Source: Escherichia coli (GTDB lineage: Bacteria > Pseudomonadota > Gammaproteobacteria > Enterobacterales > Enterobacteriaceae). Taken from it: DNA of 64,000 bases. Every line of letters starts with the position of its first letter. Within the stretch, counting starts at the first letter, position 1. The stretch is taken from NCBI RefSeq assembly GCF_029227855.1, contig NZ_CP074356.1; one strand, 5' to 3'. A program made the position numbers. Positions 1,046-4,000 of the stretch are shown piece by piece.

Positions 1046-4000
1046 TAATTGCTAACAGATTTATCCGCTCCATCGCGGGCGGATAAATCTCCCCTTCCCC
1101 AACTTTCTTCGTAACGCCTCGCAAATTTCTTGTCTTTCGCTGCAACGAAATAAAAAACCTCGGAAGCTGCTTTCCCGTTTCGTTTTTTGCCCCTCGCTTG
1201 TGCTGATGGCGTTTGCCAAAGTAGCGCCAACCAAATCAAGGAGCGAAACAGATGGACAAGCAACGCGGTTTTACACTTATCGAACTGATGGTGGTTATTG
1301 GCATCATTGCCATTTTAAGCGCCATTGGTATTCCCGCTTATCAAAACTACCTGCGCAAAGCCGCACTCACCGACATGCTACAAACCTTTGTGCCTTACCG
1401 TACCGCCGTAGAGTTGTGCGCGCTGGAACATGGTGGATTAGATACCTGCGACGGTGGCAGTAATGGCATCCCCTCGCCTACCACCACCCGCTATGTTTCA
1501 GCCATGAGTGTGGCAAAGGGCGTGGTGTCGCTGACCGGGCAAGAAAGTCTCAATGGGCTAAGCGTCGTCATGACGCCGGGTTGGGATAACGCAAACGGCG
1601 TCACCGGTTGGACGCGCAACTGCAATATTCAAAGTGACAGCGCATTGCAGCAAGCCTGCGAAGATGTCTTTCGCTTTGATGACGCAAACTAAGGAGCGGC
1701 AATGAATATTCCACAGCTCACTGCCCTGTGTCTGCGTTATCAGGGAGTCTTGCTGGATGCCAGCGAAGAGGTGGTTCATGTTGCGGTAGTCGATGCACCT
1801 TCGCATGAGCTACTGGACGCATTGCATTTCGCTACCACCAAACGTATTGAGATAACCTGCTGGACGCGCCAACAAATGGAAGGTCACGCCAGTCGCACAC
1901 AACAGACATTGCCCGTAGCTATTCATGAGAAGCATCAGCCCAAAGCAGAGTTGCTGACTCGAACGTTACAATCTGCGCTGGAACAACGCGCGTCTGATAT
2001 TCATATCGAACCAGCGGACAATGCCTACCGCATACGCTTGCGTATCGACGGCGTATTGCATCCTTTACCGGATGTTTCACCGGATGCCGGAGTCGCATTA
2101 ACCGCCAGATTAAAAGTGCTGGGGAACCTGGATATTGCGGAACATCGCCTGCCGCAGGACGGGCAATTCACTGTCGAACTGGCAGGAAACGCCGTCTCAT
2201 TTCGTATTGCGACCTTACCATGTCGGGGTGGTGAAAAGGTGGTATTAAGGTTGTTACAGCAGGTGAGTCAGGCACTGGATGTCAACACGCTTGGAATGCA
2301 GCCGTTACAACTGGCGGACTTTGCCCATGCCTTGCAACAACCACAGGGACTGGTGCTGGTAACAGGCCCTACAGGCAGCGGCAAAACGGTCACGCTTTAT
2401 AGTGCCCTGCAAACGCTGAATACCGCTGACATTAATATTTGTAGCGTAGAAGATCCGGTTGAGATCCCCATAGCCGGACTAAACCAGACGCAAATCCATC
2501 CGCGTGCCGGACTCACCTTTCAGGGCGTTTTGCGTGCGTTATTGCGCCAGGATCCTGACGTCATCATGATCGGAGAGATCCGCGATGGCGAAACGGCAGA
2601 AATTGCCATTAAAGCCGCGCAAACCGGTCACCTGGTGTTGTCTACCCTACACACTAATTCCACCTGCGAAACGCTGGTACGTTTACAGCAAATGGGAGTC
2701 GCCCGCTGGATGCTATCATCGGCGCTTACGCTGGTAATAGCCCAGCGTCTGGTACGCAAACTTTGCCCGCATTGTCGCCGGCAGCAAGGGGAGCCCATCC
2801 ATATTCCAGACAATGTATGGCCGTCGCCGCTGCCCCACTGGCAGGCACCCGGTTGTGTACATTGCTACCACGGTTTTTATGGTCGCACGGCCTTATTTGA
2901 AGTTCTGCCCATAACACCGGTCATACGTCAGCTTATTTCCGCTAATACCGACGTTGAATCGCTGGAAATGCACGCCCGACAGGCGGGTATGCGTACGCTT
3001 TTTGAAAACGGCTGCCTGGCCGTGGAGCAAGGCTTAACCACCTTTGAAGAGTTAATCCGCGTATTGGGGATGCCGCATGGCGAGTAAGCAACTCTGGCGC
3101 TGGCATGGCATAACCGGCGACGGTAATGCGCAAGATGGGATGCTATGGGCAGAGAGTCGTGCTTTACTGCTTATGGCACTACAGCAACAGATGGTTACCC
3201 CACTTAGCCTGAAGCGAATCGCCATCAATTCTGCGCAGTGGCGAGGAGATAAAAGCGCGGAAGTCATTCATCAACTGGCGACGCTACTCAAAGCCGGGTT
3301 AACGCTTTCTGAAGGGCTGGCACTGCTGGCGGAACAGCATCCCAGTAAGCAATGGCAAGCGTTGCTGCAATCGCTGGCGCACGATCTCGAACAGGGCATT
3401 GCTTTTTCCAATGCCTTATTACCCTGGTCAGAGGTATTTCCGCCGCTCTATCAGGCAATGATCCGCACGGGGGAATTGACTGGTAAGTTAGATGAATGTT
3501 GCTTTGAACTTGCTCGACAGCAAAAAGCCCAGCGTCAGTTAGCCGATAAAGTGAAATCAGCGTTGCGTTATCCCATCATCATTTTAGCGATGGCAATCAT
3601 GGTGGTTGTGGCAATGCTGCATTTTGTGCTGCCGGAGTTTGCTGCTATTTATAAGACCTTCAACACCCCACTACCGGTACTAACGCAGGGGATCATGACG
3701 CTGGCAGACTTTAGTGGCGAATGGGGCTGGCTGCTGGTGTTGTTCGGCTTTCTGCTGGCGATAGCCAATAAGTTGCTGATGCGCCGCCCGACCTGGCTTA
3801 TCGCGCGGCAGAAATTGCTGTTACGCATCCCGATTATGGGTTCACTGATGCGGGGACAAAAACTCACGCAGATCTTTACGATTCTGGCGCTGACTCAAAG
3901 TGCAGGCATTACTTTTTTACAGGGCGTAGAGAGCGTCAGAGCAACAATGCGCTGCCCGTACTGGGTGCAACTTCTGACACAAATCCAGCACGATATCAGT

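What the first reader, a model, noticed from the sequence alone, without database searches (positions are those of the whole stretch)
1058..1089. Perfect 11-bp inverted repeat downstream of nadC without a U-tract
gatttatccgc-N10-gcggataaatc lies 10 bp after the nadC stop and about 160 bp upstream of ppdD. Without a T-run it is not a canonical intrinsic terminator and may be a protein-binding site or RNA stability element.
Basis: seen in the sequence. Interest (0 to 1): 0.15.

Follow-up and report, generated by a model that had tools for sequence, protein, structure and literature searches.

The report
nadC mRNA 3′-end hairpin, no U-tract
The inverted repeat is real and forms the stem-loop at which the E. 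coli nadC messenger RNA ends, an ordinary member of the well-known class of gene-end hairpins that lack a U-tract, so it is a routine feature rather than a new one.

Summary
The repeat exists and is slightly larger than reported. The DNA arms are a perfect 12 bp (1057-1068 / 1079-1090). As RNA it forms a 14-pair stem with a 6-nt loop (dG about -20.7 kcal/mol, z -4.7), and no T-run follows it.

It is single-copy and present in 5424 of 5426 complete E. coli genomes. The perfect form is a minority allele (about 19%). K-12 and about 58% of genomes have one A fewer, which leaves a bulged U (dG about -15 to -16).

Public full-length transcript data for K-12 (SMRT-Cappable-seq, M9 medium) show nadC as a monocistronic RNA. 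It ends at 117707, which is 3-4 nt past the base of this hairpin (about window 1094). Seventeen reads end there, 9 end within 50 nt downstream and 3 read through.

The 78 nt that follow are strongly C-rich and G-poor (C/G 3.7), a Rho-loading (rut) signature. Other Enterobacterales carry an unrelated hairpin at the same position, often a canonical terminator.

The best reading is a 3′-end-defining, exonuclease-blocking stem-loop of nadC mRNA, with Rho probably doing the terminating. Rho dependence was not tested. A protein-binding role has no support. Interest is low.

The parts
155..1048 (+). nadC coding sequence (quinolinate phosphoribosyltransferase); the stop codon TAA is at 1046-1048.
   Evidence: ORF list. 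RefSeq annotation of the matching stretch in E. coli genomes.
1057..1070 (+). 5′ arm of the hairpin. Positions 1057-1068 form the perfect DNA repeat arm AGATTTATCCGC. Positions 1069-1070 add a U-G pair and a C-G pair in + strand RNA.
1071..1076 (+). Loop CAUCGC. Four of its six positions vary among Escherichia alleles.
1077..1090 (+). 3′ arm of the hairpin. Positions 1079-1090 read GCGGATAAATCT. The run AAA at 1086-1088 is AA in K-12 and most E. coli, which leaves a bulged U in the 5′ arm.
1091..1094 (+). CCCC run that holds the inferred nadC mRNA 3′ end. K-12 TTS 117707 is the 4th C after the stem, equivalent to window 1094 (1093 if the published coordinate is 0-based).
   Evidence: SMRT-Cappable-seq Supplementary Data 1, mapped onto NC_000913.3. 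Transfer to the window by alignment is an inference.
1084..1161 (+). C-rich, G-poor tract and candidate Rho utilisation (rut) region. It has 26 C and 7 G in 78 nt with regularly spaced C. The first 40 nt after the stem have 17 C and 3 G.
   Evidence: The rule applied is taken from RhoTermPredict. Rho binding itself was not tested.
1105..1126 (+). Context only: the probable CRP-S site of the Sxy/CRP-dependent ppdD promoter (TTCGT-N6-TCGCA). It is the first block conserved in sequence across genera and lies 15 nt downstream of the hairpin.
   Evidence: Cross-genus alignment. Cameron & Redfield 2006 report one predicted CRP-S site in the ppdD promoter fragment that spans about window 1037-1168. 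The exact coordinates are my inference from the motif.
1252..1692 (+). ppdD coding sequence (type IV pilin), the downstream gene that is insulated from nadC transcription.

Best explanation
The inverted repeat encodes the 3′-terminal stem-loop of the monocistronic nadC mRNA. RNA polymerase transcribes through nadC and the hairpin. Once ribosomes release at the stop codon 9 nt upstream, the C-rich, G-poor RNA immediately after the hairpin is naked and can load Rho. Rho then stops transcription diffusely within the roughly 160-nt gap before ppdD. 3′-to-5′ exonucleases (PNPase, RNase II) trim the heterogeneous tails back to the stable stem, leaving a discrete 3′ end 3-4 nt after it.

The hairpin thereby sets the 3′ boundary and stability of nadC mRNA. 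Together with termination, it keeps nadC transcription out of the normally silent, Sxy/CRP-dependent ppdD promoter.

Shown: the hairpin, its conservation within Escherichia, the mapped 3′ end in K-12, the low read-through and the rut-like composition.

Inferred: Rho as the terminating factor, exonuclease trimming, and transfer of the K-12 3′ end to this strain's allele.
For: (1) The structure is strong and non-random: dG -20.7, z -4.7. Every Escherichia allele folds, with dG from -14.6 to -20.7.

(2) A direct 3′-end map exists. It is in Yan et al. 2018, SMRT-Cappable-seq, sheet M9_TTS. The row reads NC_000913.3 117707-118679 reverse, with 62 reads at the TSS, 17 ending at the TTS, 9 more ending within 50 bp downstream and 3 passing through. 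Median read-through is 41 nt, and only b0109 is covered. In MG1655 the stem ends at 117711 and is followed by CCCC, so 117707 is the 4th C. The operon table lists b0109 alone.

(3) The site matches the class defined by Dar & Sorek 2018. [quoted passage not shown] Here the tail has 2 U in 8 nt. The next 40 nt have 17 C and 3 G, the 99.87th percentile of the window. The best 78-nt window has C/G 3.7 and passes the RhoTermPredict RUT rule. Only 0.3% of window positions pass that rule with C/G >= 2.4.

(4) The conservation pattern fits an RNA stem. Substitutions affect 0 of 20 upper-stem columns, against 4 of 6 loop columns (Fisher p = 0.001) and 13 of 31 flank columns (p = 0.0006). The bulge of the majority allele is removed in two independent ways. 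One is an A insertion in the 3′ arm (this window, 1040 genomes). The other is a T deletion in the 5′ arm (strain 2018-11-1BCC, dG -19.8).

(5) The position is conserved while the sequence turns over. In about 50 Enterobacterales loci a hairpin sits 0-25 nt after the nadC stop, often as a canonical stem plus T-run. In Citrobacter the slot holds REP-like palindromes.

(6) Termination is needed here. ppdD transcript was undetectable in earlier work and is strongly induced only when Sxy is expressed (Cameron & Redfield 2006).

(7) The only other candidate structure in the gap, 1161-1189 with a T-run, folds no better than shuffles.
Against: Rho dependence is not demonstrated. No bicyclomycin, rho-mutant or exonuclease-mutant data for this locus could be retrieved.

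The 3′ end appears in only one dataset and one condition (M9, 17 reads). It was not found in the held tables of Adams 2021 or TERMITe 2025, which may be truncated or may lack coverage of a weakly expressed gene.

Reads that pass the hairpin mostly end within about 50 nt. That is rather close for Rho loading on a 78-nt rut that begins at the hairpin, so they may be trimming intermediates or weak intrinsic stops.

C>G composition is a general property of this intergenic region, even in genera with canonical terminators. The contrast between the two classes is weak (p = 0.015, not phylogenetically independent, with noisy classes).

No compensatory base substitutions exist within Escherichia, because 10 of 14 pairs never vary, so covariation is uninformative. 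The compensating indels lie in homopolymer runs, which are prone to slippage.

The mapped end is from K-12, which carries the bulged allele, not from the strain of this window.
Confidence: 0.6

Rival explanations
1. It is a degenerate, non-canonical intrinsic terminator. The hairpin itself, perhaps helped by NusA or NusG, makes RNA polymerase stop a few nucleotides after the stem without a U-tract and without Rho. It would be a decayed descendant of the canonical nadC terminator seen in sister genera.
For: The 3′ end is discrete and lies 3-4 nt from the stem, and most transcripts stop there or within 50 nt.

E. albertii and one divergent E. coli carry a shorter 9-pair stem followed by UUCUUCCC, which looks more like a terminator.

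Many other genera have a true stem plus T-run at this position. In them the T-run doubles as the T-rich flank of the ppdD CRP-S site. Escherichia has a C-rich spacer inserted between the hairpin and TTTCTTCG.

Dar & Sorek explicitly discuss such transition states between terminator types.
Against: The tail CCCCUUCC would form a strong rC:dG hybrid, the opposite of what releases RNA at intrinsic terminators. There is no U-tract and no upstream A-tract. The 3′ end lies closer to the stem than the usual 7-9 nt, and the rut-like tract starts exactly there.
Confidence: 0.22
2. It is a DNA operator. A dimeric protein binds the palindrome AGATTTATCCGC-N10-GCGGATAAATCT to regulate ppdD (the site lies just upstream of its CRP-S site) or nadC.
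For: It is a perfect palindrome located 15 nt upstream of the probable CRP-S site. The upper-stem bases are invariant in Escherichia. The ppdD promoter fragment used for CRP bandshifts included it.
Against: It has no sequence conservation outside Escherichia, whereas the CRP-S site and other ppdD promoter and leader blocks are conserved across many genera.

Natural 1-nt indels alter the spacing and sequence of the outer half-sites, yet always preserve or improve base pairing. The variable positions are the central 6 nt, which form the loop, as expected for RNA.

An RNA 3′ end maps to it. No regulator with such a site is known to me. The only reported binder of the fragment is CRP, at the CRP-S site.
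Confidence: 0.04
3. It is a member of a dispersed palindromic repeat family (REP/BIME-like or another mobile palindrome) that happened to land after nadC.
For: Citrobacter species carry REP-like palindromes at the same position. REPs are known 3′ stabilisers associated with Rho-dependent ends.
Against: The element is single-copy. There is one match in the window with up to 3 mismatches and exactly one place per genome in about 5000 E. coli genomes. It shows no resemblance to the REP consensus on inspection, and no Rfam family matches.
Confidence: 0.02

Closest known systems
Protective 3′ stem-loops at steady-state ends of Rho-dependent E. coli transcripts (Dar & Sorek 2018, NAR 46:6797; hypothesis of Peters et al. 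2012)
   Same: It is a stable stem-loop a few nt upstream of a precise mRNA 3′ end. It lacks a U-tract and an upstream A-tract, and a C>G (rut-like) sequence follows immediately. It lies in an intergenic 3′ UTR.
   Different: Rho dependence and exonuclease trimming have not been measured for nadC. The stem is unusually A/U-rich at its base and polymorphic there, occurring as bulged and perfect alleles.
Canonical Rho-independent (intrinsic) terminators, including the nadC terminators of Kluyvera, Enterobacter, Shimwellia, Cedecea, Serratia and Yersinia
   Same: It occupies the same position relative to the nadC stop, has a stem-loop of similar size and energy, and produces the same outcome of a monocistronic nadC transcript.
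   Different: It has no U-tract, and the 3′ end lies in a C-run 3-4 nt after the stem. In Escherichia a C-rich 13-nt spacer separates the hairpin from the nearest T-rich stretch.
REP/BIME elements acting as 3′ mRNA stabilisers and attenuators
   Same: It is an extragenic palindrome after a stop codon with no U-tract. Citrobacter uses REP-like elements in this very slot.
   Different: It is single-copy and unrelated in sequence to REP.

Membership tests
Canonical intrinsic (Rho-independent) terminator | Stable G+C-containing stem-loop in the nascent RNA | tested here: met
   14-pair stem, dG -20.7 kcal/mol, z -4.7.
Canonical intrinsic (Rho-independent) terminator | A 7-8-nt U-rich tract immediately 3′ of the stem | tested here: not met
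   The tail is CCCCUUCC, with 2 U in 8 nt. The site is not flagged by the stem + T-run scan.
Canonical intrinsic (Rho-independent) terminator | RNA 3′ end within the U-tract, about 7-9 nt after the stem | tested here: not met
   The K-12 3′ end is at the 4th C after the stem.
Canonical intrinsic (Rho-independent) terminator | Termination by RNA polymerase alone, independent of Rho | not testable with these tools
   This needs in vitro transcription or bicyclomycin data. None could be retrieved.
3′ protective stem-loop of a Rho-dependent transcript (Dar & Sorek 2018 class) | Precise steady-state mRNA 3′ end immediately downstream of a stable stem-loop | tested here: met
   TTS 117707 lies 3-4 nt after the stem base at 117711. 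Seventeen reads end there. This is one dataset in one condition, for the K-12 allele.
3′ protective stem-loop of a Rho-dependent transcript (Dar & Sorek 2018 class) | No U-rich tail and no A-tract upstream of the stem | tested here: met
   The tail has 2 U in 8 nt and the 8 nt upstream (UUGCUAAC) have 2 A.
3′ protective stem-loop of a Rho-dependent transcript (Dar & Sorek 2018 class) | C-over-G enriched (rut) sequence immediately downstream | tested here: met
   The next 40 nt have 17 C and 3 G, the 99.87th percentile of the window. A 78-nt window has C/G 3.7 with regularly spaced C. Composition alone is only weakly specific.
3′ protective stem-loop of a Rho-dependent transcript (Dar & Sorek 2018 class) | Read-through past the site rises when Rho is inhibited by bicyclomycin | not testable with these tools
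   The Dar & Sorek Table S2 and the Peters 2012 tables are not held.
3′ protective stem-loop of a Rho-dependent transcript (Dar & Sorek 2018 class) | Longer 3′ tails in pnp or rnb exonuclease mutants | not testable with these tools
   No accessible data. The 9 reads ending within 50 nt downstream are compatible with this feature but not diagnostic.
REP/BIME repeat family | Many dispersed copies per genome sharing a consensus | tested here: not met
   There is one copy in the window with up to 3 mismatches allowed and one place per genome in about 5000 genomes.
Transcription-factor operator (DNA palindrome) | Sequence and half-site spacing conserved along with the regulated promoter | tested here: not met
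   The repeat is not conserved beyond Escherichia, although the adjacent ppdD promoter blocks are. Indel alleles change the spacing.
Any curated RNA family (Rfam 15) | Covariance-model match at or above the gathering score | tested here: not met
   Only chance-level hits were found, with E from 5 to 9 and scores far below gathering.

The most novel reading that the evidence does not exclude
The hairpin might be a factor-independent terminator that works without any U-tract, releasing E. coli RNA polymerase in a C-run 3-4 nt after the stem. The natural alleles (bulged, +A perfect, delta-T perfect) would then set different levels of read-through into the Sxy/CRP-dependent ppdD competence-pilus promoter in different E. 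coli lineages.
Probability: 0.1. Interest if true: 0.35.

Novelty: new member of a known kind. Interest (0 to 1): 0.08.

Why it matters
It matters little beyond annotation. The result assigns a defined 3′ boundary and a plausible termination mode to nadC. It also explains how a housekeeping gene is insulated from the silent competence-pilin gene ppdD 200 bp downstream.

The locus is a tidy example of terminator turnover. One slot after nadC holds a canonical terminator, a REP element or a hairpin without a U-tract, depending on the genus.

The allele series of bulged and perfect stems could serve as a small natural experiment on 3′ hairpin stability. Nothing here challenges current understanding.

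Tried and rejected
(1) Gene-name and coordinate searches of supplementary tables. Dar & Sorek 2018, the 3′-UTR valves paper, the nanopore paper, Nadiras 2018 and Helicase-SELEX have no files held as text. Adams 2021 and TERMITe 2025 have held files but no nadC, ppdD or 1177xx entry. Peters 2012 is not held. No held paper mentions both nadC and ppdD. A search for 'ppdD' with 'bicyclomycin' returned only an irrelevant paper.

(2) Rfam at a permissive threshold gave nothing meaningful.

(3) Base-pair covariation within Escherichia is uninformative. Ten of 14 pairs are invariant, there are no double changes, and the shuffles equal the observed values.

(4) The cross-genus contrast of C-minus-G downstream of hairpins with and without a U-tract is weak: 8.0 against 5.3, p = 0.015. 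The comparison is not phylogenetically independent, the automatic classes include errors such as Shimwellia, L003 and E. asburiae, and C>G is general to this intergenic region.

(5) The downstream weak hairpin plus T-run at 1161-1189 was considered as the 'real' nadC terminator. It was flagged only on the - strand and folds no better than shuffles (z 0.28 and -0.24). Read-through reads mostly end before it. It was rejected as a terminator. Its blocks are conserved in sequence as part of the ppdD promoter or leader.

(6) A REP family and a NadR-type operator were considered. The element is single-copy. From memory, the NAD-box is TGTTTA-N6-TAAACA. Only the TTTA/TAAA core is shared, at the wrong spacing, and it is not conserved. 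This comparison is a recollection, not a test.
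Full report
**Locus.** The window is E. coli, not K-12. The first 1.7 kb hold nadC (155-1048, +) and ppdD (1252-1692, +), followed by hofB and hofC. 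A 261-nt query across the junction matches one place in each of 5424 of 5426 complete E. coli genomes. RefSeq annotates only nadC and ppdD there and places nothing in the gap.

**Observation.** The repeat is real.
- The finder reports perfect 12-nt arms, 1057-1068 AGATTTATCCGC and 1079-1090 GCGGATAAATCT, 10 nt apart.
- As nadC-sense RNA the stem gains a U-G pair and a C-G pair. This gives 14 pairs and the loop CAUCGC, with MFE -20.7 kcal/mol against -8.8 ± 2.5 for shuffles (z -4.7).
- The opposite strand folds about as well, but the U-G pair becomes an A·C mismatch there.
- No T-run follows on either strand. The terminator scan does not flag the site, and no sigma-70-like promoter is flagged nearby.
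- The element is unique in the window even with 3 mismatches allowed. No Rfam family matches.

**Rarity in the window.** The whole 64-kb window has only five perfect, non-overlapping inverted repeats of at least 11 bp with a short spacer, and all five sit at gene 3′ ends. Two are classic A-run/stem/T-run terminators (35080-35109 and 7656-7681). Three have no T-run: this one, 4278-4307 at the hofC stop, and 60427-60466. The feature is therefore non-random, but it belongs to a common population.

**Allelic state.** The 'perfect' repeat is specific to a lineage.
- K-12, O157:H7 and most other strains have the right arm GCGGAT-AATCT, one A shorter. This leaves a bulged U and a dG of about -15 to -16.
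- The K-12 allele has exact 51-nt matches in 3133 genomes, and the window allele has exact 52-nt matches in 1040.
- Strain 2018-11-1BCC has instead lost a T from the left arm, which again gives a perfect stem (dG -19.8).
- E. albertii and one divergent E. coli carry GCGGATA|TTCTTCCC, a 9-pair core stem (dG -12.7 to -14.6) followed by a pyrimidine-rich tail.
- Across 13 Escherichia sequences (11 distinct), substitutions hit 0 of 20 upper-stem columns. They hit 4 of 6 loop columns (Fisher p = 0.001) and 13 of 31 flanking columns (p = 0.0006).
- There are no compensatory substitutions, so classical covariation says nothing either way.

**Other genera.** One scan of species-representative genomes with NadC returned 80 loci, from Escherichia to Vibrio and Shewanella.
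- In the Enterobacterales, ppdD usually follows nadC after 160-300 nt.
- Almost every locus has a strong hairpin 0-25 nt after the nadC stop, but the sequences are unrelated to the one here.
- Many are textbook terminators. Examples are Kluyvera ATGCCCTCC-CTCC-GGAGGGCAT-TTTTT, and similar structures in Enterobacter spp., Shimwellia, Cedecea, Serratia plymuthica and Yersinia.
- Others lack a T-run (Leclercia, E. cloacae, Pluralibacter, Pseudocitrobacter). Citrobacter carries REP-like palindromes.
- An alignment of the 150 nt upstream of ppdD shows where sequence conservation across genera begins: at the probable CRP-S site (window about 1105-1126). It continues through several promoter and leader blocks. 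The hairpin region is not conserved.
- In many genera the terminator's T-run is the T-rich left flank of the CRP-S site itself. Escherichia has a C-rich spacer (CCCCTTCCCCAAC) between the hairpin and TTTCTTCG.
- Conservation of position with turnover of sequence is the signature of a terminator or 3′-end structure, not of a sequence-specific protein site.

**Direct evidence for the RNA end.** Supplementary Data 1 of Yan et al. 2018 (SMRT-Cappable-seq, full-length primary transcripts, M9 medium) lists the following row:
- Coordinates NC_000913.3 117707-118679, reverse strand.
- 62 reads from the TSS, 17 ending at the TTS, 9 more ending within 50 bp downstream, and 3 passing through.
- Median read-through of 41 nt.
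- Type 'novelTTS', meaning it is not among the previously known EcoCyc termination sites the authors compared with.
- Only b0109 is covered.

In MG1655, nadC is 117752-118645 and ppdD is 117109-117549, both on the minus strand. Reading the minus strand, the hairpin spans 117743-117711 and is followed by CCCC. Position 117707 is the fourth C, which corresponds to window 1094. The operon table of the same paper lists b0109 alone from this TSS.

**Mechanism.** Dar & Sorek 2018 showed how steady-state 3′ ends of Rho-dependent E. coli transcripts are arranged.
- The ends lie immediately after stable stem-loops that resemble terminator hairpins but lack the U-tract and the upstream A-tract.
- C-over-G enrichment and rut sites lie right downstream.
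- PNPase and RNase II trim the diffuse primary ends back to the stem.
- The authors also note that terminators could switch type simply by changing U content.

The nadC hairpin fits each sequence criterion.
- The tail has 2 U in 8 nt, and the 8 nt upstream have 2 A.
- The next 40 nt have 17 C and 3 G, the 99.87th percentile of the window.
- The best 78-nt window (from 1084) has 26 C and 7 G with C every 11-13 nt. This satisfies the RhoTermPredict RUT rule at C/G 3.7, and only 0.3% of window positions pass that rule with C/G >= 2.4.
- The K-12 sequence gives the same result.

Termination in this gap is also needed biologically. Earlier attempts to detect ppdD transcript failed, and ppdD is strongly induced only when Sxy is expressed (Cameron & Redfield 2006).

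I therefore favour Rho-dependent termination downstream, followed by exonuclease trimming to a protective hairpin. I have high confidence (about 0.85) that the hairpin defines the nadC mRNA 3′ end. I have moderate confidence (about 0.6) in the Rho step, because no bicyclomycin or exonuclease-mutant data could be retrieved.

**Rivals.**
- *Degenerate intrinsic terminator (about 0.2).* It is favoured by the discrete end close to the stem, by the more terminator-like E. albertii allele, and by the canonical terminators in sister genera. It is disfavoured by the C-run at the release site.
- *DNA operator (about 0.04).* It is disfavoured by the lack of cross-genus conservation next to conserved promoter blocks, by indels that change half-site spacing while preserving pairing, and by the variable centre.
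- *REP-like repeat.* It is excluded by copy number.
- *The downstream weak hairpin plus T-run (1161-1189).* It is not a credible terminator on the + strand.

**Verdict.** This is a real, structured and functional element of an ordinary and well-described kind. No paper found in the searches describes this instance and RefSeq does not annotate it. Its 3′ end is already recorded in a public table. Interest is low.

Noticed in passing
window 4278-4307: A perfect 12-bp inverted repeat, AACGCTGGCGTG-N6-CACGCCAGCGTT, overlaps the hofC stop (4277-4279). It lies 6 nt from the end of the convergent minus-strand ORF 4314-5357, which is guaC by K-12 synteny from my own knowledge. It has no T-run on either strand and is probably a shared 3′ hairpin without a U-tract for the two convergent genes.
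   Followed up: partly
window 60427-60466: A perfect 17-bp inverted repeat, GCTAAGGTTGAAGGGGC-N6-GCCCCTTCAACCTTAGC, abuts the stop of minus-strand ORF 60467-61228. It has no T-run and is the strongest close palindrome in the window.
   Followed up: partly
window 1149-1198: An A-run, a weak stem and a T-run (ATAAAAAACC / CGGAAGC..TTTCCCG / TTTCGTTTTTTG) were flagged as terminator-like on the minus strand only, and the region folds no better than shuffles. However, the GGAA..TTCC and TTTTTGC-CCCTCGCC blocks are conserved in sequence across Enterobacteriaceae between the CRP-S site and the ppdD start. Their role (promoter element, leader or protein site) is unknown.
   Followed up: partly
window 1105-1145: The probable ppdD CRP-S site (TTCGT-N6-TCGCA, 1105-1126) and a conserved CTGCAAC block (1139-1145; TGTAAT in Citrobacter) are the first elements conserved across genera after nadC. 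In many genera the nadC terminator T-run is the T-rich left flank of this CRP-S site, so terminator and activator site overlap.
   Followed up: partly
L087 (E. coli 2018-11-1BCC), about 68-100: A rare allele with a T deletion in the left arm restores a perfect stem (dG -19.8). This is a second, independent way of removing the bulge of the majority allele. Its frequency in the population was not measured.
   Followed up: partly
L007, L011, L031 (Citrobacter spp.), first ~100 nt after nadC: One or two REP-like palindromes (for example GCCCGATGGCGCTTCGCTTATCGGGCCTAC and GCCGGATAAGGCATTTACGCCGTCATCCGGCA) occupy the slot that holds the hairpin in Escherichia.
   Followed up: no
L028 from ~2300; L069 from ~3430: Short tandem repeats lie directly after nadC in two distant relatives: (GTTCTCC)n in an Enterobacteriaceae MAG and (GCGATAAGC/GCGGTAAGC)n in Shewanella electrica.
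   Followed up: no
window ~121 (inferred): SMRT-Cappable-seq places the K-12 nadC transcription start at 118679, 34 nt upstream of the ATG. If there are no indels between the strains this corresponds to about window 121. The consensus promoter scan was not run on this part of the window.
   Followed up: no
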